A stretch of 58,946 bases of DNA, counting the filler, from Dugesia japonica (Eukaryota), in the NCBI GenBank assembly GCA_001938525.1. It is 5 parts of 5 records of this genome, joined end to end, with 100 filler letters (N's around TTAATTAATTAA, not from the genome) between each part and the next. Parts side by side here need not be neighbours in the genome. Positions count along the whole stretch, not along the records: positions 1 to 19,233 come from MQRL01611244.1; 4 more parts are not named here. The stretch is one strand, 5' to 3'. The notes under the pieces were generated by a model, which saw nothing but the letters and a program-made list of their open reading frames with translations, had not been told where the DNA came from and searched no databases. The stretch's first letter is position 1. Every line of letters begins with the position of its first letter. Positions 861 to 36,980 of the stretch are shown in pieces. The translations under genes and the position numbers were made by a program.

Positions 861-2279
861 TTGACTATGAGAATTCCATCAACTTAAAAGATTACCAGTG
901 GGAAGTTGCTATGACCAAATTTGTATTCAATTATTGTCCACAGACTATACAAAAAGTTTCGAAAATTGAATTTAAAATAAGAGAGGTGAAGGAAAATGAG
1001 AATCGATTTCAATTAAGTATTGTAGATGTTATGTTGCAACTTAATAATACCGTCCCTCTCAATAAATATAATTTGCATTTATTGTCCGAAGAAAAGAAAG
1101 TAATATTGAAAACATATTGTCAAGTAGAAATGGAGTTTAATTCAATATCCGATGCTAAAACTTTTGGATTTAATTTAATCAATACCAAAAATAAAAGGCC
1201 GTTATTTTCAGATAATATTCTTCAACCGTTTTATTACATGTTTTCCATGACATATTCTATGGGTAGTTTATCAAAATCTGCCCAAACAACTAATGAGTAC
1301 TTATAGCGCAGGCGTCATCATCTGATGTAGGTTGATGGAGATTGTAAATTCGATCCAAAACGAAAAATCTCAACAACCTACAAGCAATTCCTATTGATGC
1401 ATTGTTTTATGTTAATGATGATAAAAAAGGAAAGAAAATCCATACTCTCAACCATTTTTCCTGAGTCTTCGAATTAGTAATTATCCACACCATACATTAC
1501 ATAACATGTAGTATTTTGTCGTAGTTTTCGATCAAATCCATTTATTCAACTAACTTATTTGATTTTTTATTAATATAACCGCTAGATGAATTTGGAATCC
1601 TCATCGGATTATCAATATCAGAACTCGAATTCATAACAAGATTTATTAAAACAAAATCTATACATATAAATTTGTTTTTTCCAAACAAATTTAAAATTTT
1701 ATATTCAAAACAGAAAACATCAAATATCAGTATTTGCAAAACATTTTAAAATTTATCTGTCAAATTTTAAAAATACCTTTTATATATTTTATTTTATTTT
1801 AATTTATCCACAATTTATTAAATTTCAAATTTAAAAATACATTCTATATATTTTATCTTACTTGCTTATTTAAATATTTAACAAACTGATTTCAATAAAT
1901 TCTGCCTCAAAATACAAAAAATTGAATCTGCTTTTAAAATCTTCCTTTCAATAACTATTGTTAACTAATTCCCTGCGCAATACGCTTTGAAATTTCGTGC
2001 TCGTTGGGAACAAAATTTCGATTTTACTGCACTAAATGCGAAATATCACTTCCTTCTGCATAAAAGGTGCTCGTATGCACTATGTATCGAATGTAAAAGG
2101 TTGTGTAGAGCAGGAAAAAATTTAAAAACACATCGTGAATTAACACGCTTAGAGCGCGTATATACGTTTTTAGCAGCGAAAGGAATTTCAGAATGTCAAA
2201 AAAATCCATCAATCAGTATAAAATAAATAATTAAAATAATCAATAATTTTTAATTAAAAGTATCGAAAAAATCGAGATA

Positions 2280-2800
2280 CCAAAACAATCTAAAAGATAT
2301 TTTCAATCATTACTGTATAATCACAATTTTTGGACAAATTTTGTTCCAGAAATTGAACAGATCTCTATTTATTCAGGAAATCGGTTATTTACTTGCCAAA
2401 TTCGTATTTCTCTCGAAAGTTATGTAAAGAATCTATTTTTAAACTTGTAAGAATACATTATTGAAATTTGTTTTCCGACATTTCATATGATGCGTTTGAA
2501 TCAATTTTTGAATTGAAACAATTTTAGATACGATTAAACTATTGCTCTCAAACTTTACAAATGCGTTGTAAACAATTTTATCTCTTATTTTGTCTGTTGC
2601 ATCGTGCTTCAAGTACTTTTCTAAAATAATGTCGTTAGTGTTTCAGTGTTTGTAAAATTTCACGCCATACTTAAGAAGACCATTCAATCTTTAGTGGTAA
2701 TTTTTTCAAATGTTCCTTACATCAATTGTTTTTATCAGACCTATATCAAGTGGTCGCAGTAATACAGTCGCATTTTAGGTTCAACAAACTGACATTTAAA
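2280..2800 (-). mobile_element. pogo/Tigger DDE transposase remnant
   Basis: The minus strand reads TVLLRPLDIGLIKT, similar to the TSxLQPLDxGII motif of DDE_1 transposases. Heavily decayed, so boundaries are approximate. Confidence 0.45.
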
Positions 2801-3461
2801 GTTTATTTGAGTCCTTATTTAAGTCAAGTAAATAATTTTCTCTTAAGCCTACAAAGCACTTGTAAATAAATCTCAGCCATAAATATTTACTGCTGCAATA
2901 TTCAGTTTCAATTATTTTAAATAGAAATTATTAATACATCTCAGATTTTTAGATTTTTCAATAAATAGTAGAAAGTTTTGTCAACAAAACAAAATTGCAA
3001 TTCTTTCCTTTTCTATTTTACGCCTATATAACAAGGGTTAGCAACCTTTTGCTAACAATTTGTCGATACATGGTTCGAAATTATTTGACGTATCAACAAT
3101 ATGCATATTTTTAAACCACTCAAATCAATTTACCTGTTATATCGTTTATATTGCAGAGGTCAACAACCTTCAAACATAATCAAATTATTAATATTTAAAA
3201 TTTAAAACATAGAACTTGTCATTGATAATCGCTTGGCGTGCTGTGAGTTGCCAACCTCTGTTCTGGAGTTATCTTATTCAATAAAACGTTTTCGCGGGAA
3301 TTTTTGTGCTTAAATTCAATTTTTTAGTAAATGTATTTTTCATCTTTTTGCTTATCAATTGTTTATATGTTTGATAAATCTATAGATCTTGCTTCCCGAA
3401 AATAATTCATTTGAAATAAAACCTTCAATCAAAATCTTGTTTTTTTTTGGTATTTGATAAC

Positions 3462-4198: not shown

Positions 4199-5041
4199 CT
4201 ATAGAGTTTGTGATAGTAGAGTATTATTGGTGGAATGAATAAATAATCATGTTGTTGCATTTGTATAAACTGATACAAAATTCAGTTTTTCCATCGAAAA
4301 AATTCTCGAAATGGTGTCTTTGTCTCTGTTCTGTGCCTTTTCTAAGTTTCTTACTGAACACATCTTTATTATAAATTTCCTTTGATATTAAAATTTCTCA
4401 TGTATGCAATTTTATGTATTACATGTATTAAATACGCCGCGATAAGCATGCCGAATAAACACTTAAGTAAACCGAAGAAATCCCATTACCGGGCACCGGT
4501 TAGCAGAACTTCAATTGTTATGCTATGATCAATAAGTGAAGGTATTTCCCAACGCGACCTAACCAACAATCAAGTGAATCAGGTAATTTGAATTAAGAAT
4601 CTGTTAGCTGATTTTGAGATACCCTTTGTCTATTTAATGATGAAAGTTCTTCAAAGGCAGATACTTCTAAGAGAGGTTGAAAGAACCTATACGAATTGCC
4701 TCAAATACGCAAGAACCCAGATGGGAAGTGGAGGACTCTTTCTTCCGCTGTAAATGCATAAGGTTGTCTCTAAACAAACTCAAGCCAGGCGCAGTTGACA
4801 CTACTCACGTAATAAGTACTAACGAGTGCTGCTTAACTTTAAAATGCCACTATAAAGAAATAATTATTATTTTATAATTTTAGGCAATAGAATATGATCA
4901 AATTCCATTTTAAAATGTAATCAGTTCTATTTCAATTATAATTATCTTACTAAGCATGGGTTATAGTAGAGAAATAAATAATTACTAAAAATATTAATTG
5001 TGATTTGGAAAATAAATTACCAATTAAAGATTTATTTAACA

Positions 5042-5054
5042 TGGTGGCAGCGGT
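5042..5054 (+). promoter_or_regulatory. Primer binding site (tRNA-Leu type)
   Basis: TGGTGGCAGCGGT directly follows the LTR-terminal CA and is complementary to the 3' end (ACCGCTGCCA-CCA) of eukaryotic tRNA-Leu(AAG/TAG). Confidence 0.75.
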
Positions 5055-5490
5055 AAATAACGATTCTATTAGAGAGAGGTTATTGCCGAATGTGTTCTGC
5101 AGGGGATATGATATTGAAAAATTCATCAAGCAATGTGAACTTTATTTTGAAGCTAAAAACATCATCCTCTTGTTTGTGATATGAAGAATATGTAGAGTTT
5201 GAAAATAATTGAAGGTTTTCAGGCTCGTTTATGTATGGCATTTGAGAAAAAAAAGATGTTATCAAAGATTTCCAAAATTTGATTAACTACATGCGTGAAA
5301 TTGAAGAAATTCAAGTTTATTTTAAAAATGTAAAAGATTTAGTAAAAAGATTATTTACAAATAAAGACTTTACTGATGAAACATGGTAACAAAGATGATA
5401 GTATATTGTTCAGATAACAAAAAAGTTGAAGAAGAAGTGACTTTGCGGAAACGAGAGAATATAAAGAAATTGAAGAAACAATGACCTTAG

Positions 5491-5895
5491 TATTAGGTTT
5501 TCACATATGAAATATCCGATTTTAGAACTCGTTTTTTAAACTAATATATTTTTATTTAATATTTAACATTTAGAACTTATTTATATATTATTTTGAAGGT
5601 GAAANNNNNNNNNNNNNNNNNNNNNNNNNNNNNNNNNNNNNNNNNNNNNNNNNNNNNNNNNNNNNNNNNNNNNNNNNNNNNNTAAAAAATACGGAAATGC
5701 GAACATTATTTTTATATGAATGGAAATTAAAGCATAACCCAACAGAAGCTGCCCGAATTTGCATTTGGAGAGGGTTCAGCTAATAAAAGAACTCTTCGGA
5801 GATGGTTCGACAACTTTCAAAAGGGTGATTTAACCCGGGTCAATATGGAAAGGGGGCGCCCCAGGGTTGTCATTAGCAACGACAATGTAAAACGT
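5491..5895 (+). mobile_element. mariner 5' fragment nested in Gypsy gag
   Basis: TA+TTAGGTTTTCACATATGAAA TIR-like start, then EMRTLFLYEWKLKHNPTEAARI..FGEGSANKRTLRRWFDNFQKGDF..RGRP (Mos1-type HTH domains and GRP motif). Confidence 0.8.
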
Positions 5896-8800
5896 GAATA
5901 TAATAGATCTAATAAAGAAAAACAGAGATCAAGTTTATGTAGTTAGAAATTACACAAGAGTTACAAGTCGAAATAATCAGAAACCTGTAATTCATACAGT
6001 TAATATACATGTGGATCAAAGAAAAGAAAATCAAAATATCGAATGTAGGTTATGTCGTAAGATCGGTCATACTAAAGCTAATTGTCCGACAAAAAAGTGG
6101 TAGAGTGCAGAAGTTGTCATAAAACAAGACATATAAGTCGAGATTGTCCAAACAAAAAACCAACAAAATGTTTTGGTTGTGAAAAGGTTGGCCATATTAG
6201 AAGGTNNNNNNNNNNNNNNNNNNNNNNNNNNNNNNNNNNNNNNNGACATAGAGCAGAAGAGTGCTACACAAATTTGAAAATGAAAAGAACAAGTGGAAAC
6301 ATTTATGGATATTACGATGGATATGAGGAAATATATGAAAGTAATTCCGAAAGGCAGTATCCAAAAGGCAGGGTTCCACCAGTAGAGTAGTTGGTTGGAG
6401 CCATCCATTGTTGAATCAAGTGAGTCGAAAAGTTGGATGATATCGAAAAAGTTACAGAAAAAGTAAACAGGTTCTTACAGAGCGAAATTTGGGTATGATA
6501 GAAAAGTAAAATGGGTTAAAACAATTGAAGCAGAAAAGAAAATAAATATGTCGTTCTTTAAATTGCAAGGCAGACAAAGTGTTACGATATCAATTCAAAG
6601 AAAAAAAGTTGAATGCTTATTAGATATAGAGGCTAGAATTAACGTTATGAGTTTGAGTTGTTTTAATAAATTACGAGAAGTACATTTAAAAATGAGTGAT
6701 GAAAGATTTCATTGTGCAAATAATAGTACACAAGAAATTGTTGGAAAAGTTAGAATTGGAGGGATAAATGATGAAGTTTGCAAAGAGATTACTTTCTTAA
6801 TTGCTGAAAGAGTGACACCAGATCTGATAGAAGAATAGATATGCAGAGAATTTTTAGATACCAGTTTATGCAGAAGGTTGATAGCAAAACGAATAAAAAA
6901 GTCAAAAATTACATTTGCAATATTGAAACGAAATTTGGGAGACAAATTAAAAAGGAACAGCGATTGACAAGAGCCTTAAACACTTTAAAGATTAAAGACG
7001 ATCAACGGATTTTAAAAAAATTGGAAGTAAAGAAGATGCTTTTATGGCAGATAAATGGGATGTAGNACGCACACATCTAACAAGACACAAAATAATCACA
7101 AGAGGTGAACCAATCAATGTAAAACCGTACAGGCAACTAATGACTTTAGAATCTAAAATTGAAGAAGCTTTCCAAAACCTTTTCGAGAATAATATTATCT
7201 CCAATGTATTTGTTGCGAAGAACTTGTGGAGCCAAATATAGAAGATAGTTTGTAGTTGTGAAATTCGTCAAAAGACTAAAAACCGCTACTAACGAGAAGA
7301 CAAAGAGATTAGAAGCTATAAATTTGTTTGAAGTCATATTCACAGATATATGTGGGCTAATGGAAGAAACAAGTATACAAAAAAATACATTCTTGGAATA
7401 ATCGACCAGTATAGTAAATATTTGTTTCTTTTACCATTGCCTAGACAAGACAAGGAAACAATACGAAAAGCTATTTTTGAAAAGTGGATATTGAGATTTG
7501 GATGTCCAAGAGAGATAAGAGTAGATTGTGAAAAAGCTTTTGAATCCAGAGTTATGGGAGAGTTTACAATGAAGCTAGATATTAAACTTTGCTTTTCGAG
7601 TCATTATCATCATAATGCAAACGGACAAATTGAAAGACAATTCAAGATTTGATTAATGCAACACTTCAGGAAAGAATGACAAAAAATTAGGCAGATCTTT
7701 TACCGGAAATAGAATTTACACTAAACGCAACAAAGTAGAAGGCGGCTGGGAACAGCCTAGCTGAGATCTTATTTGGAAAAAAAATTAGCAGAGAAAAATG
7801 GTATGAATCAGACGTTTCAGATAGAACTAAAGAAAACACTTCGAACGTGATTACTAAAAGAGTATTCAAAGTGGGTGATTTTGTACTCATCAAGATAAAA
7901 ACAAGAAATAAAAGTCAACACAGATTTGAAGGACCTTATAGAATAACTGAGAAGATTCATGAAAGTTGGTTTGCAGTACAAGGAGAAAATGGACAGCGAT
8001 TGGAAAGAAATATGGAAAAACTCAGAAATTAGAGTATTAAAAAAAATAATTAATGTTTAATAATTTTAGCCAATAGAATATGATCAAATTCCATTTTAAA
8101 ATGTAATCAGTTCTATTTCAATTATAATTATCTTACTATGCATTTGTTGTAGTAGAGAAATAAATAAAGTCTAAAAATAATAATTGTGATTTGGAAAAGG
8201 AATTACCAATAGAAGATTTACCTAACAGCCACTATTTAAGTTTCAAATTTTAAACAGTGATAATTTTTAAAAAGGTGTTTTTATGATTTCCATTATAGTA
8301 AAGACTATTAAAATTTTGTTAAATGTTTCTCAAAATGTGAGGTTATAACTTCCACTTCTTTCTATAAATTCTCATTTCTTTGTACAAATTTTATTGAAAC
8401 TTATGTTTTCTGAGTTAATTTTCTTCAGTATATTGTTTGATGTTTATTATTTTAAAGCTCTTATTGCGATAAAATTTTAATTGTTTACCTTAACATCAAA
8501 TAAACATCCGCCTAAACCAAAACTGACCCAATTAAAATTTATACAATTAATTATCAATAAATTTAATACATAAATAAAATAATTTTTTTATAATATTTAA
8601 AATTTTTTTAAAAATTTATAACCAAATTAAGAGAGCAGCACTTTTTATACTAAACATTTACTTTTTATTAGTATTAAAAAGTGAATAACTGATTACAAAT
8701 CAATTTGATAGGTTGTTTCTAGTTCTTAGTTTTTTCAAAGCTTATTTGTTATGTTTTATGATTTCATGTGAATTTTTTTCCAGCAATTAACAATTTAGTA

Positions 8801-9226
8801 TTGACTGTGTATATGTTTCAATTTATTATTTTTTAAAAACTAATTCTCATTATTTTTAATTGTTTATTTTAATTTCAAATTTAACAGTTGTTAACATATG
8901 GTCATGTATATTTTTTTATTTGATGTAAAATTCGCAGAATTGAAAGATTGAATCGAAATTTTTATTTAAACTTGTAAATAATTTTTACAAAAATATTGCA
9001 CCTTTAAAAATATAATTCTTTCATATTTAAATAATTTTTAAATTTCGTTCGAAATGAAAATTAATTATAAAAAACAAATAATTTTGCACAATGCCAAATT
9101 TGTGTAAAATAAAATTACAAAAATATATAAAAATCATGCATTAACATTTCTATCATTTAATTACTTATTTTAATAATACTTTCTTAATTCTAGAAATTGA
9201 TATTAGAATAAGAAAGTAATAATTTA

Positions 9227-9405
9227 TGTTTGGGTTACACCTGAGTTAATTGAAGATAGTCGTGGCTGGGGAAAAACAGCCCTCAGGGGAACCCTTTCAA
9301 GAATTTAACCTGACGCCCCTGGGTCAGGTGTTCAGTATATGGTGGTTGACCTCTCTCTTAATGGGAGGTGCGCGCCCATAGGCCTTTTATTTGGGTTCAC
9401 TATTT
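9227..9405 (+). ncRNA. Conserved multi-stem terminal structure of the cargo element (copy 1)
   Basis: Stems GGGTT..CCTGAG/CTCAGG..AACCC, CCTGAC/GTCAGG, and TATGG/CCATA enclosing ACCTC/GAGGT. Conserved with compensatory changes in copy 2. Strand inferred from G-U pairs only. Confidence 0.5.
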
Positions 9406-9478
9406 TCCGTAAAGTTACACATAAAATTCAAACCAAAGATACTCGAAAACATTTATTAGTATAATATTTATAACTCGT

Positions 9479-9822
9479 CTAGGACGCCAGGGTCATCATC
9501 TCGATCATCAACAGTTCGAGAGGTATTCTTTCCCGGAGAAGTAAAATATCGTTAACCAGTTTATTTTCTCGGTCATGGCTGAACCAGATAATTTCCGCAA
9601 AGGACTCAACCTGTTTCTTCCAGGCTCGCTCCTGCAAGTGAGAGGTTTCGGCTTCCTTTAAAAGCGACACACTTTTTCTTATAACGAATCACCTTACTGT
9701 TGGCGGTGGCCANCTTTGCCTNCCATCGACGTTTTGCCAGTCGATATAGGTCTCAAGTGAGCTCTATGTCCTCACTGGTGTCTCTCAATTTTTTCGTGGG
9801 AGCGAATTCAAAGAGGAATGCA
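9479..9822 (-). pseudogene. Orphan ORF-C, copy 1 (helical/coiled-coil-like, disrupted)
   Basis: APTKKLRDTSE..T*DLYRLAKRRW..KVIRYKKK..EAETSHLQER..HDRENKLVNDI..PLE aligns with copy 2 (17307-17665). One stop and one frameshift. AG acceptor at 9823-9824; AATAAA at 9452-9457. Confidence 0.6.
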
Positions 9823-9992
9823 CTAAACGTTTATAATTATAATCAATAGAATACACTATGCTTAGAAAATACATCCTCATATTAATGTGGAATAGAAGTT
9901 TCCGTCAGACAATGCACATTGAAATGAAGAAAAATAACATAAGAGAGTCACTTATTTATTTTTTAAATACACAAACAACAAAAAAATTTTTA

Positions 9993-10340
9993 TTATGGAT
10001 TCAAAGTAATACCAACATTAGGAGCGGTGTTCTCGACATCGCTAACACAGAACGGCTCTCTCACACCCCAGAGTAAATTGGAGATAAAAGCTTGTACCAC
10101 TGAGGGAGGAGCGGGAGGTTGGTAATTAAATGCCGTAGTATGTGTGCGTACGGGTCCGTTCCATTTTTGGAAACGTACCCTCTCGCCGAAGTTCTGAATG
10201 CGAGCTACCATCGCCTCCACGGGGGGTAAATTAGACCTATCCACTAAAATACCAGCATCTCTATTATGCAGATTATAGTGGCGTCGGAAAATCACCCTGC
10301 GAGTTCTTCTATCTATTACTTGCTCCCAGATAGATTCCAT
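9993..10340 (-). CDS. Orphan ORF-B, copy 1 (115 aa, Arg-rich N-terminus), intact
   Basis: 46/54 N-terminal residues are identical to 17912-18190, with many synonymous differences. Acceptor-like TTAG lies 2 nt before the ATG, and the stop overlaps AATAAA. Confidence 0.8.
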   Translation of the reverse strand: MESIWEQVIDRRTRRVIFRRHYNLHNRDAGILVDRSNLPPVEAMVARIQNFGERVRFQKWNGPVRTHTTAFNYQPPAPPSVVQAFISNLLWGVREPFCVSDVENTAPNVGITLNP

Positions 10341-10496
10341 TTCTAAGTAAAGAGTGATAATAATTAGTACTAACGAAATTCATAGAAATCAGCATTATGA
10401 TATCAAAAAAAAATTTATATAAGTAGTTATTCTAATATAAAAAACGTCGAAAAGGTTTTATATATAATTTATTTTAATGATAGTAATGAACAATGA

Positions 10497-10679
10497 TCAG
10501 CTCTCAACTAAGTCTACTCTTCCCGGTAAGGGGAACATCTCGGTAAAACAACAAAGGTCTGTCTCATCAGGATGCTCGATTCTCCCTTTAGTTAATAGAT
10601 GAGCTATTGGTTGTCTTAATCGGGGAGTTTGGCGTTGTTGTTTTATCCATCGAAGGGTACGACGCAACTCTGCTGGCAT
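10497..10679 (-). CDS. Orphan ORF-A, copy 1 (60 aa), intact
   Basis: Same length as 18357-18539 and 27/60 identical without gaps (RLRQxIxHxL, ExPDETDLxCFxExFPLP). TTAG lies 3 nt before the ATG; AATAAA at 10468-10473. Confidence 0.75.
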   Translation of the reverse strand: MPAELRRTLRWIKQQRQTPRLRQPIAHLLTKGRIEHPDETDLCCFTEMFPLPGRVDLVES

Positions 10680-12945
10680 GAACTAAGAAATTAAACCATT
10701 AATCGCAGTTATTAACCCATGATTTAATCCCCTACAAAGAATAGCTGCTACTGTCTGTTATTATTAATATNNNNNNNNNNNNNNNNNNNNNNNNNNNNNN
10801 NNNNNNNNNNNNNNNNNNNNNNNNCATAATAACCTTATTAGGAAAAATAATAATAGTTATCACACCAATAACAATGGTTTTAATAGTAATAATAATATAT
10901 TTGATTATAATAATGATAATCCTAAACCGTACAACGAGTAATTATCAAACTTTTACTAAAATGATGGTGATGATAATCTTCAGACTGATGCTAATATTAG
11001 ACTAAAATTATACTAATAAATGCGGTAATAATACCTTTCACTAATCTGATGAGAAAAGTAGTCCAGTAATGCTAAGGCAATAATAACAGGTACTCCTTTT
11101 ATTAATAACAATCACTATAATGATAGTAGTAATACTAAACTTAATAATTCTAATAATAATAATACTAATAATAATAGTAATAATAACATTAATGATAATA
11201 ACAATAATTATATTGGTATCATCTTTTGCTAAAGTTATCAAAATTGTGAGGGATGATGAATTTTCGTCTTTTCCCTTGTAACAAAAAATCATACTTTTTT
11301 AGTGGAGTAAATTTTAATAAATTAGACAAAATTAATTTTTTAAATGATCGCGGAGTGGAGTTGCCTAGCACCACAAAAAACAATGTAGTGGCTAGTATTA
11401 CACACAAGAATTGAATGATAGTAGGTGTGTATGCAAAAGATGAATTATTTTTCTATCTAATCGATTGATTTCAATCGGATTGCTATGGCGAAATTATCCA
11501 CTACGGCAACTCAAGTCGCTATAATGAGTGTCTGATTGTTTATATCTATAGGGAATTTGGGGGAATGACTCAGGCTCATAGTCGGATTAAATTTACTAAG
11601 TCCTTCAATTTTGTAGATCCTGCGATCGAGAATATGATACATAAATAAATTGATTTGACTAAAAATTAAAAACCTCATTTCATTGATAATAAAATATTTT
11701 CATATTAAAATAATAATTAGAGTTAAAATTCCATATCATTAAGCTTTAATTTTGTATTAATTCACTATAACATAACAGAACACTTACTATAAAATTTTCG
11801 ATAAGATTTCTGCAACGGTTGCTACCAATAAAAGGNNNAATGAACAATTTTTTGGTAATTGATAACGAAAGTCCCAACTTCTGCTGTTTTATTAAAATTG
11901 AAATCAGCTCAAGATTTAATGAATAGAATTACTTTGATGCGCGATAACTGATCACGTTGATTTCCAATTGTTTTTATCGTAGTAAAATTCTGCCGAGAGT
12001 TTTCCTTTTTGAGAAATAACGAATATGCGGTTTTGACGTTTGGATTGTTTATTAATTTTAAGAGAGATTTAGTAGTGTTTTTTGTGTGTGTTTCTGCTAA
12101 TTTCATGATTCCTTATATATGACTTTTCCTTGCACCCCAACTTCTTTCATATTCGTTGGTTATCTTTAACTAGAATTTTCGACTTCCTATTGGTTCTAGT
12201 GCCAATTTTCTAAAGAATATTTGGAGTTTTAGCGTTCCAATTGGCGGTTATTTTTAAAACCTCATGTGACCGATTGTGCTTTGTCTTATTTTTATTTTCA
12301 GGTTCCTTATTGGCTCAATCTTGAAATCCCTGCAGCAACCTTCTGGATGGTGGTAAGATTTTCTTCTTAACAAATTCTAATGCTTCTTACTATTTTCTTT
12401 CTGGATTTTTTTACCCGAACTCTCTCTGATTTTCCTGAGCAAAGTTATTCGTGTAAAACGGATTTTTGANNNNNNNNNNNNNNNNNNNNNNNNNNNNNNN
12501 NNNNNNNNNNNTGGTAATTAATTATTTTCCCATAATGATTTTCTTGACTTTTTTTATTAATTTAATAATTCTTTTTAATTCTCAATATTGATGTATGCTA
12601 GTTTAATTACGCCCGGTTCTTCGTATCCATCTCCAATTTTATTTTATTCTTTTCTAATGGTTATTTTCATTATATCCTACCCAGATCTTAATTGCTTCTC
12701 CTTTTGCATTTCATTATTGGTAAATATAATGGCCCTACTGTTCTTCTTTGCTGATTTGGGTTTTTGGCCTTATTTTCCTTTTTTAACGGGTGTTTCACCC
12801 CAACATTTATAAAAAAAATAATTCCGCAAGAACACTATTTGAAGAAGTGAGAGCTTTTAAAATATTTTAATTGATCGAAAACTTGATTATTAAAAATTTT
12901 TATAATTATTTGTGAAGTAATTTTAATTAAATATAGTAATAATAT

Positions 12946-14060
12946 TGTTAGATTCCAAAAAGAGATAAAATCTTACTCCCAAGATTTATCTGATTTAACA
13001 ACTTTATCAACATTAACTGTAGTAATAAAAATATATGGAAAAAGAAATAAGCATAAAAAATATATTTAAATCACAAAATGATACTGTAACAAATATATAT
13101 AGCTTTTTTGAAATCAGTTATGCAATCATGTCTGAGCAATAAAATCATGCACACATTCAAACAGCCAACTACGCATTTACCTATTATCACATACATATGT
13201 CAATTTGAAAGGTAAATATGAAAATATTATATTATTCTTAGTCATATCTCACATTCCCCTCTTTTAAAGTGTTTTAACCATTCAATATTTCTTATTATTT
13301 TACCATTAATATGTTTAATTTAAAACTCCTATCACGTATTTTCTCTATAATTATTGCTGGTCCTTCATATCTGTTTTCATTTTTATGTAGACTTTCTATT
13401 TTAGTTAAAAATTCGTCACCAATATTAAATTTTTTACGTGTATTATTCTTTTCTAAGTTTTTGAAATTTTCATAGTTATTTAAATTGTTTATTATTTTTT
13501 ACGCTTTAGATTTCTTTCATTTACATTGTTTTTATCATTCCTAACTATCCATTCTTTGTGTATATTTTCCCCAAAAACTAATTCAGATTGAGATACATTC
13601 GTTGTTCTCTGAATTGTGGTGTTCAACATAAATTCTATTTCTGATAAAATAATGGCCCAGTCCTGCTTTTTCTTATCCTGTAAACTAATATGATGTCTTT
13701 ATCTTATTGTCTTTTAATTATTCAACTACTACTATGATGATATGGACTAGAGTATTGGATTTCACAATTAAATTCCTTGGCTAATTGTTGGAACAGATTT
13801 GATTCAAATGATTTTCCATGATCTGTATGTATTATTCTCGGTGCACCATATTTCAAAATCCAACTATTTTTAATATTTTCATCATGATGTGCAACTGCAT
13901 TGAGAGATATAAATCCAATGAATTTATCAATTATAGCTAAAATGTATTGTTTTTCATATAAAGTTTTCTTTAAACTACCACAAAAATCAATATGAATGAT
14001 TTCAAAGATGTCATCAGCTGGATTTATTTGTTTTTATTTAAAAAATCTTCCTAATGATGC
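12946..14060 (-). mobile_element. Ty3/Gypsy 3' fragment: integrase, polypurine tract and 3' LTR
   Basis: Minus strand IHIDFCG..YILAIIDKF..WILKYGAPRIIHTDHGKSFES..SSPYHH..RYEGPAII. PPT AAAAGAGGGGAA (13254-13265) is followed by TGTGAG (LTR start 13253). The LTR probably ends ..TAACA at 12946. Confidence 0.8.
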
Positions 14061-15104
14061 AAGTTGAGTGAATTGTTTACTAATTTTTTAATGATCATAA
14101 AAAGATGAAAATTTTTTATTTGGATCATGAATTAAGAATATGTTGAAATTGGTTGAAATAATTTCAAAATTTGATTGGAAAATGTCAAAATGTGCTGAAA
14201 TAATGTAGAAACACCTGTAATAAGAAAAATAATTTGATTGTAGAGATTACTTGAGCTAGAAAGCTCTTATTCAAGTTAGGAAAGGTAAAAGGTATTATTA
14301 TATTATACTGATGTTTGCTAAGAAACTCTTATTATAGGCCTACGTATTTCAAACCGAGAAAATGGACCAGATTTATATTTTAAAAGACTGAAATTAATAA
14401 TTACTGATAGGCTAAGTAAAACTGTAGTCAGTAAATTTTTTATTAAAATATAAGTTGGCTACAAGTCAAATATCTTTTAGTCACTGCTATTTTACATGGC
14501 AGTTATTTTACATTAATTTCCAAAAAAATACGGCCAGTTTTTATTTAAAAATATTTATTATTCATAAATTAAAATAAAAATAATATGATAACAATTTTAA
14601 ATAATTAACGGGAATTTAAAAAAGTATTATTTTTCCATGATTTTTTGATTGGTTAAATAATAATAAAAACCTTTTAAATTAAGTATTTATTTTTACTTTA
14701 AATTAAATAACATCAAAAATAATACACCCAGTCATTGAATTAAATAAATTAATATTTGAACTTAATAATTATAATAATTAAATTAATTTGATTGTGATAA
14801 AATGACGATCTATTTCATGAGAAATTTAATGCGTTAATGTCAAGTGGAATGAAACTGTGAAATTTACTATTATATTACACAAAATTGTGGATTTTGGACA
14901 AATCGTAAAATGCATTAAAACGGTAATTTCACTATTTTTCTTTAATATTTATATATTAAATTTAAATAAATAATTCAATTACTTTTTTTATTAATTTAAA
15001 AATTCTGTTGTTAGCGGTTTCTCTTGTAATTAAGAATATAATATATATCACAATGATAATAAGAATAGTAATAATGCATGTTAATGTCTTTATTATTCAT
15101 ATTT

Positions 15105-15660
15105 TTAATGGTGTTCCACCTTACCCACAGGTATTTGTCCGGTTGTCATTTAACTGGTTCTCTCGGTAGCGTCAGTGAGTCCTCTTGAAGGAGTGCAGGC
15201 GTCTACTTATTTACTTCGGATTCATTGTACTGACTGGAAGGATATATCAAAAAGCCATTTACCATTACCTGTGTGGCCTGTTTTAGATGAGTTTGTGACA
15301 GATTTTTATACGTACATCAGTAACTGTGAATAGTTAAAGGAATAACCGTGGAATGGTTTTGTCAATAACTTTTCCGTGGTTAGCCATAAATCGAGAATCT
15401 CTGTTGATATTATTTTCCTGGGAATATTTTATTGGAAGAATGCTAATATCTACACCCGAGTTGACCAGGAATTCATACTTGAGTTTCTATGTTAAAACTA
15501 GAATTGCAATTATTGATTTAATGGATTGAGATCCGTTGACTTTTCCTACTTTTCAAACCCTATTAATTTCTTTCCTAAAGCTTCTTTCACGTTTTAACTT
15601 TGATAATCGAATTTTCCATAATTCATTTTATTGAAAATTTCTTGCTTAGCATTTTTTCTA
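15105..15660 (-). mobile_element. Retroelement fragment with degenerate retropepsin
   Basis: Minus strand YEFLVNSGVDISILPIKIF resembles the FLVDSGADISILP active-site motif of Gypsy proteases. Flanks are decayed. Confidence 0.5.
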
Positions 15661-16602
15661 CCAATTCTGAATTTTTTTGTAATCAAATGAACTTAAAAAT
15701 TATTAATTTATTTCTTTCTGAATAATTTATTCATTAAATAATTAAAGTAATATAAAAGATAAAATTAATAAATCGAAAGTAATGAAATAAATTTCAAAAT
15801 ATTAACACGTTAAAATATTTAAAAATTTTAGCAAAAATGAGTTAAATATAAAANAATAAAATTAATGAAGTTAAAATAAGATTTTTAAAAAATTTTTTAT
15901 TTAAAAAATACTTTAAGTTAAAGTTGAGTCTCAAATTGTTTAGCTTATTTTATCTTTCACTATTTAGTAAATATTTCAATGATTTATAAACTTTTCAATT
16001 AAACGGTGAGCGTCATTGACTCACTTAACAGTGTGCATTCATTAAAATCAGTGAATTTAAACAAAATATATTTAAATTTTCAACATATTTTATTTGATGA
16101 TTTTCTGAATGTAATACTACAAAAATAGAATGTCACATTGTTTAAATGTTATTTTTGTTTTTACCAACAAATGTACGCGCTTTAAATTTCCTAAATTATC
16201 AAGTGATTCAATCTAGTTCATTTTAGATTACATTTTTTTTTAATAAATTAAAATATCAATTGTCAGTTATCTGCGATCAAAAAATCAATTATAATTTAAT
16301 TATTATTTTTTAGGGAGTAATATAGTGATTAGTATTAAATTAATTTTTGTATGTTACGTAAACATAAATTACGGTGGTAAATAAAATAAAAATACATACA
16401 AAATAAAGTATGTTATCAAAAATTAAAGTAATATTTTGGCGGTAGATCAGATCGCGATAAATAGGGGTTTCGCTGTACTGTCATTTTAAAAAGTCATTTT
16501 TCAATATTAAAGGAATTTTTAAAAAATAATGTACAAGAAATACATTTTTATAATGGAGATTATCAATTTTTACAAAAGAAACCTCTTTTTAATGTATATT
16601 AT

Positions 16603-16783
16603 TGTTGGGGTTCTATCTGAGTTTGGTCACAAATAACGTGACTGGGGAAAAAACAGCCCTCAGGAGACCCCTTCAAGAATTTAACCTAACGTCCGTAAGT
16701 TAGGCATTCAGTATGTGGTGGTTGACCTCTCGCTTAATGGGAGGTACGCGCCCATATACCTTTAAATTTGGGTTCACTATTTA
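16603..16783 (+). ncRNA. Conserved multi-stem terminal structure of the cargo element (copy 2)
   Basis: GGGG.TCT.TCTGAG/CTCAGG.AGA.CCCC, CCTAAC/GTTAGG (16685-16690/16699-16704), and GTATGTGG/CCATATAC enclosing ACCTC/GAGGT. Confidence 0.5.
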
Positions 16784-16841
16784 CCCTATTGTCATTACTA
16801 TATTAGATACTTTAACACGAAAAACTTTATTTCATATGAAA

Positions 16842-17224
16842 CTAGAGAAGACCTAATACACCAGGGTCTAGCCACTGGCCTGGATTCGTCTTTAAAAAGT
16901 TAAAAGAATCTATGTCATCCTCATCATTCCATTGTATCCACGTGGGATTACCCATCTGGCGGGAAAGGTCGGATATATACTGTTTAAGAAACTCAATCTT
17001 CCTCTGAAGCAATAATTTATTCTCATCTTCCAAAGTCTTGGTCTGTACCGCCAGGTCGTGCTGTTTTTTCACGATCTGATCGAGTTTCTTAATCAGACGA
17101 TCTCGCTGGTCCAGAAGCTTAATTAGTGCTCTATCGGTTTTCCGTTTTAACTGACGCTCTAAAAGCAGATGGCGCATTATGCGATGGCACCTTCGCAAGC
17201 TGCTCGGAAAATTAATGCGGGGTA
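16842..17224 (-). CDS. Orphan ORF-D (coiled-coil protein, ~110-127 aa), copy 2 only
   Basis: Open frame from an AG acceptor at 17225-17226 to the stop at 16842. Heptad-like Leu/Ile spacing (LIKLLDQRDRLIKKLDQIVKKQHDLAVQTKTLEDENKLLLQRKIEFLKQYISDL). AATAAA at 16826-16831. Confidence 0.6.
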
Positions 17225-17306
17225 CTAAAAGAAATACCTNNNNNNNNNNNNNNNNNNNNNNNNNNNNNNNNAAAAAAATTTAGTTATGGCCAAACATTTA
17301 TTGGTA

Positions 17307-17665
17307 TCAGGAACGTGGGGTCTGGCTACTATTGTCAACTATTAGTGGTTCAAGAGGCATGGCAGCCTTTAGGTTGTGAATGTCTTGTACCAATTTATTT
17401 TCACAGTCATGGTAGGACCGGATCATCTCTGTTAACGATTCGAGTTGAGCCTTACAGACTCTTTCTTGCTTATGGGACGCCTCGGCTTCTGACTTGAAGG
17501 TCATTTACTTCCACTTATAACGCCTAACCTTGGCATAAGCGTTTGCAACCTCAGCTTCCCAGCTTAACTTCGCTAACTTATACAGGTCCCAAGTTTCTAG
17601 GTTTCGTCACTGGAAGCTCTCACTTTCTTGGTTGGGGCCTGAACTCGGTTTAAAGATGATTGCAC
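17307..17665 (-). pseudogene. Orphan ORF-C, copy 2 (disrupted)
   Basis: APTKKVRASSD..ETWDLYKLAKLSWEAEVANAYAKVRRYKWK*MTFKSEAEASHKQER..HDCENKLVQDI..PLE. One frameshift, one stop, and the acceptor AG appears mutated to TG. Confidence 0.6.
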
Positions 17666-17843
17666 AAAAAGAAGTGAAAATTAATCAAATACTATGAGCT
17701 AAAATATCGATTTCTCACGACCGATGCTGTCGGGATACATTTACAAATCATCCCTAATAAAAAATGATTTTTACACAAAAAAAATATGATGTAATCAATC
17801 TGGAGACAACGAGATATTTTATTACAACTAAACAGATAAGTCC

Positions 17844-18190
17844 CTAATGTGAAGTCGATAAATCAGTCATGGGTGCGGCATTCTCCGAATCCTCGCTACC
17901 CGAGGGTTCTCTTACTCTCCAAAGCAGATTATTGATAAATGCCTGTATGGCGGGGGCTGGGCTGAAGGTTTATATTGAAATGTCGTAGCAAGGGCTCGAT
18001 CGGGACCCGTCCAACTTTGATGATTACGACGCTCCCCAAAATCCTGTATCCGGGCTACGATGGCTTCCACTGGGGGTAGATTTGACCTATCGGCCAAGAT
18101 GCCTGCGTCACGATTGTGGGGATGAAGATGACGTCTGAAGATCACTCGACGAGTTCGTCTGTCGATTACCCGCTTCCATATAGACTCCAT
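17844..18190 (-). CDS. Orphan ORF-B, copy 2 (one frameshift near 17950)
   Basis: Track ORF 17912-18190. Changing frame near the G run at ~17952-17956 restores IQAFINNLLWRVREPSGSEDSENAAP..SH*, matching copy 1 VQAFISNLLWGVREPFCVSDVENTAP. Confidence 0.75.
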
Positions 18191-18356
18191 TCTGCAATAG
18201 AAATTGATTTAAAAGCGCAAAGTATAGATAGATATTTATAAAATTTTAAATAAAGGANNNNNNNNNNNNNNNNNNNNNNNNNNNNNNNNNNNNNNNNNNN
18301 NNNNNNNAACAAGGCTATATTTTATTTCAATTATCAATGTTTTATCAAAGCACATG

Positions 18357-18539
18357 TTACTTCCGTTCGGTATGAGTTTTTTCTGGCAAGGGGAACAGCT
18401 CGACGAAACATTGTAGATCGGTTTCGTCGGGGTTCTCCACTAACTCCGGAAATAAGGAGTGGCCGATAAGCTGTCGGAGTCGCGTGCGTTTCCGCGGCTT
18501 CAAAATGATACTCAGGGCCTTCGTTAAATCACTTGGCAT
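18357..18539 (-). CDS. Orphan ORF-A, copy 2 (60 aa), intact
   Basis: Homologue of 10497-10679. TTAG lies 3 nt before the ATG; AATAAA at 18321-18326. Confidence 0.75.
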   Translation of the reverse strand: MPSDLTKALSIILKPRKRTRLRQLIGHSLFPELVENPDETDLQCFVELFPLPEKTHTERK

Positions 18540-19233
18540 ATTCTAAATAATAAGAAATTAACTCTAGGTCGACTCAACATAATTATGGGCCTATCGATTT
18601 AAAGCTAAGTTTAGTGAGGTAATTCAACGGACGGGTCACAATTTCTGAGAGGTAACCTCATTTAATACAAAAATTTAGCCCAGCGCAGGATTCAATGCCT
18701 GGCCTAGCAAAGTTGTGGACAGTGATAATCCCGTTATTAATTATCAATGACCTGTAGGGGTAGTGGTGCTAATCGTAATTCTCTCAACAGTAATGTCCCT
18801 TGATGAGAATTCACAAAGTTAACAATAACACCTAAATTAATCGGAACAATGATAAAGTTAGTAATAACATTAAATGTGAGTAGGATAGGGTTATTGATGA
18901 CTAATAAGTATAATAGTAATTATAATAATAAAAGTCGTCATAATAAGATAAGGTGATACTAATGAACCAAATCATTAACTTTAATGTGGAAATTGATAAT
19001 CCCCTGGGTCATATTTAGTAGAAATTGAGTCAGTATCGATGGCTTGGCCAACGTGGGGTGATAATCCTACTAAGTTAACCGAATATAAGGACCCCAATGT
19101 CCAGGATGCCTATGTGGTTGATAACTATTAATCGTGATGACAGACTTAGGATTCTTCCTTGTTTGTTAAGCCATAATAGAATTTCAAAGTTCGACATAAG
19201 GACATCACATTTTTATAGCAACACCCTAAAAAA

Positions 19234-19333
19234 NNNNNNNNNNNNNNNNNNNNNNNNNNNNNNNNNNNNNNNNNNNNTTAATTAATTAANNNNNNNNNNN
19301 NNNNNNNNNNNNNNNNNNNNNNNNNNNNNNNNN
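19234..19333. other. Artificial contig-joining spacer
   Basis: 44 N + TTAATTAATTAA + 44 N = 100 bp. The motif has stops in all six frames and is identical at four places. Confidence 0.95.
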
Positions 19334-20499
19334 TATAATCTTAAGTTAAATTGTTTTCAAATTTTTAAAAAAATATTCAAAGCTGAAATCTCGAAAAATT
19401 TGCCTATGTAAGTAATTTGTCTTACAGTACTATTATTAGTAAAATCTTTTTTTAACTTTAGAAAAAAAGAAGAATTTGACTTGATTTGACAAATTCTTGA
19501 CCTTGTGTTTCGTTTCTTGTCACTACTTAGTTGTCTTAAGATTTAAGAAAATTGAGCTTTCTAGATGAACAATATATCAAGACTTTTTTAAAACTTATTA
19601 GACATTACAACAAAACAATATTTTACGTTTTCATCGACTTTAGCTAAACGTTTTTCATCAAAAAAATCATTATTTCATTGGAGAAATTAGTTCCTTTTCC
19701 ATGTTCCTTTTTGGCAATATACCATTTTTTATGAGTCTGATTTTAATGAACTCTTTGATATGATATGGATTTTCAATGAATTGCAATTTTAAAAGTAAGA
19801 ATTGAAATTTGTTTGATTATCATGTCATTAGATGCACTTAGATTTTTCAATTAATACTTTCAATNNNNNNNNNNNNNNNNNNNNNNNNNNNNNNNNNNNN
19901 NNNNNNNNNNNNNNACTTATTAGACATTACAACAAAACAATATTTTACGTTTTCATCGACTTTAGCTAAACGTTTTTCATCAAAAAAACTATTATTTCAT
20001 TGGAGAAATTAGTTCCTTTTCCATGTTACTTTTTGGCAATATACCATTTTTTATGAGTCTGATTTTAATGAACTTTTTGATATGATATGGATTTTCAATG
20101 AATTGCAATTTCAAAAGTAAGAATTGAAATTTGTTTGATTATCATGTCATTAGATGCACTTAGATTTTTCAATTANNNNNNNNNNNNNNNNNNNNNNNTT
20201 TATACCTTAGCTTTGGAGGTTCTCTGATTTCTTTTGTTTGATTGTTTAGTTCAGAAAATATTTAACGTTGATTTTAATTCTACTTACAAATAATTCCAAT
20301 AAAAGATTATTTATGTTTTCGTTTGGAAATTTATTTATTTTATATTAGTTTTCTTTTTTGCATTTTTCATTGTTTATATTATTTTTACTATGGTATCATT
20401 ATTATTTCATTTTACTTTTCATATTAATAGGCTGGAAATAACATAAGATTATTTTTATATTTTATTTTCTTGTTTTCATATTTTGCTTTTACTTTTCTG

Positions 20500-21494
20500 A
20501 CTTTTTTGGCTTTTAATTTGAAAAATTATTTACTTTTAAGTAATAGTAATTTTCAAAAATTCCCAACAATGAAAACACATAAATTAACTGTAAATCGTTT
20601 TTTCTCATGCTCTGTAGTTTTAATTCGAACTTCGGTGGCCCCTTTAGTTTCAACAGTATACCCTAATAGCATATCAAATTGAATAGATACTTCATCAAAA
20701 TTTCCGATTTGATTATCGGATAAATCCTTCTTCAACTCAGTGATGGTGCTTCTAAACTTGACTACCAGAGATTCCCAATTTTTAAATAATTGTTACTTGG
20801 TGGTGGGCCGTCGAACACCAATATTCATGCGATTCATTAAATTGTCAGCCCATTGAGAGCTCGCTGCAAATTTTTCAATCCTCATCTCTGTGACATTTAT
20901 TTGTGCCTGTAATTGAATTTTTAAAACTGATACTTAAAGTTCTCGTTCACGTTGCATTGACGTCCCTTTCGTGTAATCGTGTTCCCAATTTCAGATATCT
21001 AGCATTACCACCACGCAAAGCTCTACGGTTTGGATGCATTGCTTTGATTACAAGCTCTTTTGCGATCCACCGTCGAATCACAGTTTCGTTAATATCATAT
21101 CGACGCGCAACTTCATGAATGTTTCCTAATTGACGAACTAGATCAATAATTTCTTTTATCTTTGCTAAACTGAAGGATCTTCTCTGTTTCTTTTGTAATA
21201 ATTTATTATCGTTGACCATCTTTAATCAAGGATTAAAAAATCACACAAATTATTGCAGAGAATATAAACAACAGAATAAAAATTATTATTATGAATATTT
21301 CAATTGGTTTTTAATGAAAGGTTAATGATTGTAAAATAATAATAAATTTTTTAAATCTTTTTGTAACATTTCTCTACAGTGAAAATTGATAAAAATGAGT
21401 TTTTGCTAATTTTATTCCGACCAAATACAGTGCATCTCATATGGAAATCGTGCAGCTAATACGTGCTGCAGATTATACTCGGGATTTTACTGTA
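20500..21494 (-). mobile_element. pogo-family DNA transposon (Brinker-type DBD + CENP-B HTH + start of DDE), 3'-truncated
   Basis: TA-CAGTAAAATCCCGAGTATAA TIR at 21494. RRSFSLAKIKEII..HEVARRYDINETVIRRW; FAASSQW...MNR...VRRPTT; IGNFDEVSIQFDM..TVETKGATEVRIKTTEHEKKRFTVNL. Confidence 0.85.
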
Positions 21495-35760: not shown

Positions 35761-35939
35761 AACATATGCGGTACAAAAAACTAAAATTTTGATTGAAGCT
35801 TTAAATTTTAATGATTTCTAAAAAACGATCAATGGTTACCTCCAACAATTATTCTCGCAATAATTCTTGTAATTGTATAATAAATTGTTGATAAATTTAG
35901 TTCAGATTTTGATTAAGTTAACAATGATAATTGTTTTGC

Positions 35940-36980
35940 AAATAATTAACAAAATAAAATGTTAAATGAGAGTTACAGAGATTTATAAATTCATTAATAT
36001 TTTGATGTAAATGAAATTATAGATGATAATATCGATGAGAAAATTTTGACGATGGGTTGAAGGTCATCAACCAATAATAACCTAAAATAAAAGATGGACG
36101 AAATATAATCATAAGTATCTAGGATCGTGAGATGAAATGCCTTTTAGACATAGGTGTCCAAGTTAACGTATTCTCATAAACAATACTATATAAATTAGAA
36201 AACGCAGAAATAGTTAAAACAGATGAATTATTAAGATGTGCGAATGATAATAAATTAGAAACAATGTACAAAATTCATAATACTGTAAAATTAGAAAATG
36301 TAGAAAGTAATATTTGAAAGTGGTAAAAATTATTATTCCGGATATTATTTGAAGTATTGAATTTTCAAAATCAGTTCAGTACATAACTGGCATGGTAAAA
36401 CAAACGAAAGATAGTACAGAATATTTTATATGATATAGAAGCAAAGCATGGCAGGATAAAAGATTACAACTTGCAATAGAAATTTTGAAAGTGAGCAAAA
36501 ATAATAGATTAATGGAAATCGAAAATAATTAAAAATGTCTTCATGGCAGAAATGTTTGACTTCCATTGATAACAGAATCAAAACGAATAGAGGATCAATA
36601 AATATAAACCCAAGACGACCTGTAAATTAAGAAAAAATAAATGAGGCTGGGAAGAATTTAGAAGACAATGACATAATACCTTATAATACACATGTGTACG
36701 TAAGAAGGATCATATTTTGTCAAGATTTTAAACAATTTTGAAGAGATTTGATAAAGATTGTATAGTGCAAAATACTTTAACTCTATTGATACTGGCAGCG
36801 CTTGATAAGGAATCTCAATTAAAAACCGCTCCTGGAACATAACTAGAATTGATGAATAAGACATTAAGAGATATGGGCAGATGGAGTAATGGCATACTTA
36901 AACGACATTTGAATTTTTACAAATTCTATAGAAACACTATAATATATAAGAGAAAGTTTAAAGACAATAAAGAATAATAT
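35940..36980 (+). mobile_element. Second Gypsy protease/RT remnant
   Basis: CLLDIGVQVNVFS, LRCANDNKLET, YFNSIDTGSA and MAYLNDI (decayed YLDD). Confidence 0.7.

What the first reader, a model, noticed from the sequence alone, without database searches (positions are those of the whole stretch)
9993..10340. ORF-B shows purifying selection between the two element copies
Seen: codons 8-21 (VIDRRTRRVIFRRH) are identical in protein, yet 9 of the 14 codons differ synonymously (e.g. ATA/ATC, GAT/GAC, AGA/CGA, AGG/CGA, CGA/AGA). 46 of the first 54 residues are identical, while the flanking DNA does not align. Inference: a real translated orphan protein. The Arg cluster suggests nucleic-acid binding or nuclear import, as in viral Rev/Tat-type proteins (analogy only).
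Basis: partly seen in the sequence, partly recalled or inferred. Interest (0 to 1): 0.75.

Follow-up and report, generated by a model that had tools for sequence, protein, structure and literature searches.

The report
Four-gene orphan cassette in mobile element
This small gene is real, because its two copies differ mostly at silent positions, and it is one of four unknown genes packed at the end of a many-copy repeat in an animal genome; they are likely helper genes of a jumping element, each predicted to be spliced out as its own message.

Summary
46 of 54 residues are identical, 9 of 14 codons differ silently, and pN/pS is 0.10 (95% 0.04-0.17). The five other frames contain stops, and one 37%-identical outside homologue starts at the same Met.

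ORF-B is not a lone orphan. It is the second of four same-strand orphan genes (A-D) in a 2-2.6 kb cassette that ends in a conserved, structured TG..CA block. A and B have a splice-acceptor-like AG just before the ATG (4 of 4). All seven ORF ends are followed by AATAAA (7 of 7). Dozens of variant contigs cover each ORF in one DNA run, so this is a dispersed multi-copy family.

The window copies look dead. Copy 2 of ORF-B is frame-broken, 14 of 18 differences between copy 1 and the family are non-synonymous, and no RNA reads cover ORF-B in three runs. Selection therefore likely acted on the replicating element.

The Rev/Tat analogy is weak. The homologue keeps 2 of the 6 arginines, and the conserved core lies next door.

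Best reading: accessory genes of a retroelement-like family, expressed as separately spliced mRNAs. The element class is unproven, since no pol, second LTR or target-site duplication was found.

The parts
9993..10340 (-). ORF-B, copy 1 (115 aa, open frame)
   Evidence: homologue P0003
17844..18190 (-). ORF-B, copy 2; frame break near codon 79-80
10343..10345 (-). acceptor-like YAG ending 2 nt before the ORF-B ATG (copy 2: 18192-18194, 1 nt before)
   Evidence: predicted, no junction reads
9955..9960 (-). AATAAA after the ORF-B stop (copy 2: 17818-17823)
10497..10679 (-). ORF-A, copy 1 (60 aa); YAG 3 nt before ATG, AATAAA after stop
   Evidence: 28 identical residues, pN/pS 0.46
18357..18539 (-). 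ORF-A, copy 2 (60 aa)
9479..9823 (-). ORF-C, copy 1; broken by a stop and frame breaks; the conserved frame opens at an acceptor-like AG and has no ATG there
   Evidence: 3' block pN/pS 0.32
17307..17665 (-). ORF-C, copy 2; broken; the acceptor AG is absent here
16842..17177 (-). ORF-D (111 aa from the first ATG; coiled-coil-like; copy 2 only); acceptor-like site about 50 nt upstream
   Evidence: (only sub-threshold coiled-coil hits)
9227..9399 (.). conserved TG..CA end block, copy 1; the element boundary; folds better on the + strand
   Evidence: (82% identity)
16603..16776 (.). conserved TG..CA end block, copy 2
9400..9411 (-). purine-rich 12-nt run next to the end block (10 of 12 identical with 16777-16788); possible polypurine tract
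   Evidence: inference
10825..11230 (.). AAT-rich upstream region (also about 18700-19230 in copy 2); a decayed Asn-rich + strand frame or a decayed microsatellite
   Evidence: unresolved

Best explanation
ORF-B is a protein-coding gene shaped by purifying selection, the second of four same-strand orphan genes at one end of a dispersed multi-copy element, and it is likely an accessory gene of a retroelement-like family whose genes would each be expressed as a separately spliced, polyadenylated mRNA. Shown: codon-level constraint on ORFs A, B and C; the order A-B-C-(D)-end block in two copies; acceptor-like AGs and AATAAA signals around the genes; many variant contigs in a DNA run. Inferred step 1: an upstream leader is spliced to one of four acceptors and the transcript is cut at that gene's own poly(A) signal, giving one mRNA per gene; ORF-C would get its start from the junction or use a GTG codon. 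Inferred step 2: the TG..CA block with its purine run is the conserved end of a terminal repeat, with the cassette in the env/ORF3 or U3 position. Inferred step 3: selection acted on actively copying masters, and the two window copies are decaying after insertion. Inferred step 4 (about 30%): the ORF-B protein is a small basic regulatory adaptor that binds RNA or a host protein through its N-terminal 40-residue module (hairpin plus NRDAGI..D.SN.P), not through a Rev/Tat-type arginine motif. Odds: accessory gene of a multi-copy mobile element about 85%; LTR-type retroelement in particular about 50%.
For: Codon statistics. A homologue that aligns without gaps from the same Met. YAG within 1-3 nt of the ATG in 4 of 4 A/B starts, against 160 of 1818 window ATGs, with the phase differing between the two ORF-B copies, so these are starts and not one spliced frame. 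AATAAA within 4-32 nt of the stop in 7 of 7 ORF ends, against 298 of 2730 background 40-nt windows. DNA run X1: 1178 contigs laid, up to 38 contigs at one ORF-B site, summed depth peaking on the ORFs and dropping in spacers. Similarity ends sharply at TG in both copies, with unrelated flanks. ORF GC3 is 0.35-0.60, against 0.13-0.31 in six host exons. Decay: 14 of 18 classified copy-1 differences are non-synonymous, and ORF-C is broken in both copies. Precedent: LTR-element ORF3s are separate units from spliced messages (PMC5408684, passages); accessory ORFs of Gypsy elements show dN/dS below 1 (PMC13486581, passages).
Against: No gag or pol is linked to the cassette: the two neighbouring gypsy remnants have their own AT-rich LTR or polypurine tract. 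No second terminal repeat, primer-binding site or target-site duplication was found. No splice junction was seen in RNA, and ORF-C of copy 2 lacks the acceptor AG. Poly(A) signals after every gene would be expected to cut a sense genomic RNA short. The end block folds better on the strand opposite the ORFs (z -1.3 and -3.1, against -0.9 and -1.0), which fits an antisense cassette or another element class. The neutral-decay test is weak: within codons 1-54 the split is 3 synonymous to 2 non-synonymous, and the Fisher test gives p 0.027 or 0.21 depending on the region compared.
Confidence: 0.5

Rival explanations
1. The cassette is an operon resolved by spliced-leader (SL) trans-splicing: one precursor is cut into four mRNAs by adding a leader at each acceptor, and the end block may itself be an SL-RNA gene on the opposite strand.
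For: Unpaired acceptors just before starts and spacers of 100-200 nt fit flatworm operons (PMC8629364, passages). In copy 1 the end block has AUG|GU at 9339-9343 and a UVUUUGG Sm-like word at 9388, the two conserved flatworm SL-RNA features (PMC12582326, passages); 7 of 3000 shuffles gave this layout (the pattern was chosen after seeing it).
Against: Copy 2 has neither the AUG nor the full Sm-like word. The donor pairs downstream, not with the leader. A leader ending in AUG would put ORF-C out of its conserved frame (VHSSLN / VQSSLN). That the host is a flatworm is inferred, not shown.
Confidence: 0.15
2. The cassette is the accessory-gene end of an endogenous DNA virus or a virus-like DNA transposon (Polinton-like, Ginger-like or a new kind), and the end block is a terminal inverted repeat or origin.
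For: Short GC-rich genes with AT-rich spacers and their own poly(A) signals, composition unlike the host, a structured terminus, and a homologue on an environmental contig.
Against: No viral hallmark gene in or beside either copy. Five scans of viral contigs found nothing, nor did a phage search. No inverted partner of the end block lies in the window.
Confidence: 0.2
3. The cassette is the 3' end of a Penelope/Terminon-like retroelement with co-oriented accessory ORFs, including a coiled-coil one.
For: Co-oriented ORFs, a coiled-coil ORF-D, a shared 3' end with different upstream extent, and a C-rich last stretch match the Terminon outline (PMC6431247, section 8).
Against: No hammerhead match in Rfam at E up to 5. 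No run of telomeric repeats at the end, and no reverse transcriptase of this class nearby.
Confidence: 0.08
4. These are members of a host multigene cluster (or domesticated genes) still under host selection.
For: ORF-A and ORF-B of copy 1 are open. Signals for splicing and polyadenylation are host-like.
Against: Dozens of variant contigs per site, frame breaks in ORF-B2, C1 and C2, a neutral-looking spectrum of copy-1 differences, foreign GC3, a sharp TG boundary, and no ORF-B reads in three RNA runs.
Confidence: 0.07

Closest known systems
Non-env ORF3 / accessory ORFs of Ty3/Gypsy LTR retrotransposons (bdelloid Vesta, Juno; PMC5408684, passages seen)
   Same: Small extra genes near the end of an element, separate units from spliced messages, some coiled-coil, some of no known family.
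   Different: Four genes in a row, each with its own acceptor-like site and AATAAA. No GDSL, DEDDy or env match. No pol found in cis.
sORF2 of Drosophila mdg1-clade Gypsy elements (PMC13486581, passages seen)
   Same: A small accessory ORF kept under purifying selection in the element lineage.
   Different: sORF2 is a membrane fusogen. ORF-B shows no long hydrophobic stretch and is one of four genes.
Burro giant Gypsy elements of planarians (PMC6431247, passages seen)
   Same: High-copy elements in an AT-rich flatworm genome that carry accessory ORFs.
   Different: Burro accessory domains (BIR, MATH, BCL2, ankyrin) were not found here.
Terminons (Athena retroelements; PMC6431247 section 8 read)
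   Same: Several co-oriented ORFs, a coiled-coil ORF and a structured 3' end.
   Different: No hammerhead or telomeric-repeat run here.
Retroviral Rev/Tat arginine-rich-motif proteins (recalled)
   Same: Small, basic accessory proteins from multiply spliced mRNAs.
   Different: The Arg cluster is not kept in the distant homologue, and there is no sequence or fold match.

Membership tests
LTR retrotransposon (Ty3/Gypsy or Bel/Pao) | Terminal repeat bounded by TG..CA | tested here: inconclusive
   One TG..CA block per copy, at the element boundary; a 2-nt signature is weak.
LTR retrotransposon (Ty3/Gypsy or Bel/Pao) | Two direct LTRs flanking an internal region, with target-site duplication | tested here: not met
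   No partner repeat or matching flank duplication. The two copies are not sister LTRs, because they diverged under selection. Upstream ends are gapped or truncated.
LTR retrotransposon (Ty3/Gypsy or Bel/Pao) | gag-pol (RT, RNase H, integrase) in cis | tested here: not met
   Nearby pol remnants have their own LTR or PPT. Full-length copies were not available, so I do not file it as a member.
LTR retrotransposon (Ty3/Gypsy or Bel/Pao) | Polypurine tract before the 3' LTR; primer-binding site after the 5' LTR | tested here: inconclusive
   A purine-rich 12-nt run, 10 of 12 conserved but with interruptions. No TGG site beside the block.
Rev/Tat-type ARM proteins (features recalled) | Arginine-rich motif conserved among homologues | tested here: not met
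   6 Arg in ORF-B codons 8-21, 2 in P0003; one homologue only.
Rev/Tat-type ARM proteins (features recalled) | Binds a structured RNA element of its own genome | not testable with these tools
   Needs a binding assay.
Flatworm SL RNA (end block) | Leader ending AUG followed by a GU donor | tested here: inconclusive
   Present in copy 1, absent in copy 2 (feature from PMC12582326).
Flatworm SL RNA (end block) | Sm-like UVUUUGG downstream | tested here: inconclusive
   Copy 1 yes (9388), copy 2 one mismatch.
Flatworm SL RNA (end block) | Donor on the first hairpin | tested here: not met
   In both predicted folds the donor lies on the second hairpin, paired downstream.
Flatworm SL RNA (end block) | Leader found on 5' ends of many mRNAs | not tested
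   The end block lay outside the stretch laid.
Terminon / Penelope-like element | 3' hammerhead ribozyme plus C-rich telomeric repeats | tested here: not met
   Rfam scan of 8500-19500 at E up to 5 gave no hit in either end block; no repeat run.
Endogenous DNA virus / Polinton | Hallmark replication or capsid gene; inverted terminal repeats | tested here: not met
   None in 112 window frames scanned against Pfam or 8 proteins against PHROGs; copies may be partial.

The most novel reading that the evidence does not exclude
A mobile element that packs its accessory genes as a four-gene operon cut into mRNAs by spliced-leader trans-splicing, and in the boldest form carries its own SL-RNA-like gene in its terminus (about 5% for that part). 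It would be a selfish element that uses, or supplies, the host's trans-splicing machinery.
Probability: 0.15. Interest if true: 0.88.

Novelty: new variant of a known kind. Interest (0 to 1): 0.5.

Why it matters
Purifying selection on a transposon gene is ordinary. What stands out is the layout: four unrelated orphan genes in a row, each framed by an acceptor-like site and a poly(A) signal, in a family with many copies. If full-length copies prove to be retroelements, this is a complex-retrovirus-like set of accessory genes in an invertebrate element, and four new small protein families to test for anti-silencing or RNA-handling roles. If the genes are trans-spliced, it links mobile elements to operon processing, which I did not find in print. 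Repbase and the original Burro paper were not available, so the family may already be catalogued as an unnamed repeat.

Tried and rejected
No whole genome is held, so copies could not be aligned.

Homology searches that led nowhere for ORF-B: word-index search; profile search, which returned only P0003; Pfam; PHROGs; PDB sequences, best E 0.017 to ribosomal uL4, judged chance; ESM Atlas; viral, metagenome and prokaryote contigs; phages. P0002 and P0004 are long repeat proteins and were rejected as chance. ORF-D had no homologue, nor did ORF-A in viral contigs. Only near-length proteins were searched, so fused forms are untested.

The AlphaFold model is poor (pLDDT 50, pTM 0.20), and fold searches gave nothing at E up to 0.001.

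The run index listed no RNA holder on record, which is no evidence on expression.

Rejected readings: an opposite-strand frame or RNA structure as the cause of conservation; the two copies as LTRs of the gypsy remnant between them; ORFs A-C as exons of one gene (phases before the ORF-B ATG differ between copies, and each ORF has its own stop and AATAAA); a hammerhead or other known RNA in the end block. RNA reads at 10851-10944 and near 9986 were set aside as low-complexity matches. An exact acceptor-plus-ATG pattern was not enriched window-wide (3 seen, 4.7 expected), as expected for a local feature.

Full report
1. Setting. The window is AT-rich animal DNA (GC 0.18-0.35 per 2 kb). It holds host exons (Ig/LDLa perlecan-like, Rab27-like; these names are my reading) and decayed gypsy, mariner-like and MULE pieces. 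The composition, AAT runs and short introns suggest a planarian-type flatworm. That is an inference (about 60%), resting on the >70% A/T figure for Schmidtea in PMC11410931 (passages). No whole genome is held.

2. ORF-B (9993-10340, minus) and its second copy (ATG at 18190) share 46 of the first 54 residues, and 9 of codons 8-21 differ silently. Mismatches fall 10/4/31 on codon positions 1/2/3. pN/pS is 0.097 (95% 0.044-0.171) over 54 codons and 0.219 over 78; synonymous sites are saturated, so these ratios understate the constraint. None of 20,000 column shuffles reached the observed 56 of 78 identities. The five other frames carry stops, the RNA has no strong shared fold, and the spacers on either side do not align. 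Copy 2 has a one-base frame break near codon 79-80.

3. One outside homologue. A search of 1.84 billion representatives gave three hits. One is real: P0003, 94 aa, 37% identical over 89 ungapped residues from the same Met, a singleton from a 512-bp ENA contig. Invariant columns cluster at W5, D10, R15, I17-F18, R20, N26-R-D-A-G-I31, D34, S36-N37, P39 and W60-G62-P63. The Arg cluster is mostly not kept (6 against 2 Arg). AlphaFold on three sequences gives a hairpin at 4-21 (block pLDDT 70-73) and two helices, with poor overall confidence. No family or fold match was found.

4. ORF-B belongs to a cassette. On the minus strand both copies read ORF-A, ORF-B, ORF-C and then a conserved end block; copy 2 has ORF-D before the block. 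ORF-A (pN/pS 0.46) and the 3' block of ORF-C (0.32) are constrained too. All four A and B starts have YAG ending 1-3 nt before the ATG, against 8.8% of 1818 window ATGs. All seven stops are followed by AATAAA within 4-32 nt, against 10.9% of 40-nt windows. The copies are related, so the independent counts are 2 and 4 genes. ORF-C has no ATG: its conserved frame (VHSSLN / VQSSLN) opens at an acceptor-like AG in copy 1, and that AG is absent in copy 2. Coding GC3 is 0.35-0.60, against 0.13-0.31 in six host exons and 0.25-0.39 in two gypsy frames.

5. The end block. Positions 9227-9411 and 16603-16788 are 82% identical. Similarity stops at TG, with unrelated flanks. The block reads TG..CA over about 173 nt, and a 12-nt purine-rich run (minus strand) adjoins it on the cassette side. 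On the plus strand a shared fold of 43 pairs is kept in both copies, 2 pairs by changes on both sides (two sequences only). z-scores are -1.3 and -3.1 on plus, and -0.9 and -1.0 on minus. Rfam has no match there. No partner repeat, primer-binding site or target-site duplication was found. The gypsy remnants on either side have their own AT-rich LTR or polypurine tract, so the cassette is not theirs.

6. A multi-copy family, with decaying copies here. I laid 4 of the 24 listed runs on 9723-11120 at 80% likeness. DNA run X1 laid 1178 contigs (51 at 99% or more, 679 under 90%; some come from the AAT run at 10851-10944). Up to 38 contigs carry one variant in ORF-B, 40 in ORF-A and 68 in ORF-C. Summed depth peaks at 2,200-3,300 in the most conserved ORF bins (ORF-B bins range 390-2,520) and is 170-540 in spacers, while a contig identical to the locus has depth 11. 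The tool warns that this is no copy number, but it shows a large dispersed family. Of the 40 difference rows shown (of 206), I classed the 18 that lie in ORF-A or ORF-B and set aside two (9995 in the stop codon; 10552, minor in DNA). Fourteen of the 18 are non-synonymous (ORF-B 7 of 11, ORF-A 7 of 7), close to the roughly 77% expected without selection. This test is weak: in codons 1-54 alone the split is 2 non-synonymous to 3 synonymous. In three RNA runs (6-25% of each read, 5.2 billion letters) no read covered 10005-10380. A few partial reads under 90% alike fell on ORF-A and ORF-C in X12, mostly with the first mate on +, which suggests low sense transcription of diverged relatives. Relatives as distant as copy 2 (72% in the ORF-B 5' half) would be missed. 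No RNA joint was seen.

7. How it most likely works. Shown: constraint, gene order, flanking signals, many copies. Inferred: an active master element made one mRNA per accessory gene by joining an upstream leader to one of four acceptors and ending at that gene's AATAAA. Its proteins helped the element copy itself, so masters with intact genes left more copies; inserted copies such as these two then decayed. An LTR-type retroelement is the likeliest carrier (TG..CA end, purine run, ORF3-like position), but at only about 50%, and I do not file it as a member. For ORF-B I favour a small basic adaptor acting through its N-terminal module (about 30%). A Rev/Tat-type arginine motif is less likely, given the homologue.

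8. Rivals. SL trans-spliced operon (15%): copy 1's end block has the two conserved flatworm SL-RNA features (PMC12582326, passages), and 7 of 3000 shuffles gave that layout. But the pattern was post hoc, copy 2 fails it, the donor is on the wrong hairpin, and an AUG-ended leader would misframe ORF-C. DNA virus or DNA transposon end (20%): no hallmark genes, and five viral-contig scans were empty. Terminon-like (8%): no hammerhead. Host gene cluster (7%): against it are copy number, frame breaks and composition.

9. Literature. Passages were seen for PMC6431247 (also section 8), PMC11410931, PMC12582326, PMC6880638, PMC4558846, PMC2770079, PMC7346339, PMC8629364, PMC8532177, PMC5408684 and PMC13486581. 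No supplements were opened; repeat libraries in supplements could bear on novelty. The original Burro paper is not held. Nine searches showed no description of a four-gene acceptor/poly(A) cassette in a mobile element. Rev/Tat features are recalled. Earlier scan notes describe single orphan ORFs in Gypsy elements of other genomes; these are unchecked leads, not support.

10. Verdict. The gene is real and the selection is real, but it is most likely element-level and past. ORF-B is one part of an unusual four-gene accessory cassette of an unclassified, high-copy element. New variant of a known kind; interest 0.5.

Noticed in passing
window 41885-47136 (-): Exons of a host gene with Ig and LDLa-like domains, perlecan-like, with short introns full of AAT runs and assembly gaps.
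   Followed up: no
window 22628-22849 (+): Ras-family exon that reads like Rab27. A GC-richer stretch at about 22930-23110 just downstream begins somewhat like the end block but was not matched by nhmmer.
   Followed up: partly
window 4854-8227 (+): Decayed gypsy element with about 190-nt AT-rich LTRs (90% identical), a TGG primer-binding site, zinc knuckle, protease and integrase remnants, and a mariner-like HTH piece near 5731-5943.
   Followed up: partly
window 13000-14033 (-) and 15090-15486 (-): Second gypsy integrase remnant with its own polypurine tract near 13250, and a separate protease-like remnant.
   Followed up: partly
window 13200-13272 (+): Sub-threshold Rfam hit to mir-310 (31.5 bits against 48 gathering) on the gypsy PPT/LTR junction; probably chance.
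   Followed up: no
window 33900-36300 (+), 20950-21225 (-), 54051-54548 (+): Third gypsy remnant (RT/RNase H), an HTH transposase fragment and a MULE transposase fragment.
   Followed up: no
window 19593-19853 / 19915-20175 and 41223-41337 / 42245-42359: Near-identical (98-99%) repeats on both sides of N gaps; likely scaffolding overlaps, not real duplications.
   Followed up: no
window 10825-11230 and 18700-19230 (+): Both element copies have an AAT-rich region upstream of ORF-A that reads as a decayed Asn-rich frame with DNP-like motifs on the opposite strand; it could be a divergent fifth gene or a decayed microsatellite.
   Followed up: partly
window 9412-9478 versus 16789-17306: Copy 1 lacks ORF-D: ORF-C runs almost straight into the end block, so cassette gene content differs between copies.
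   Followed up: partly
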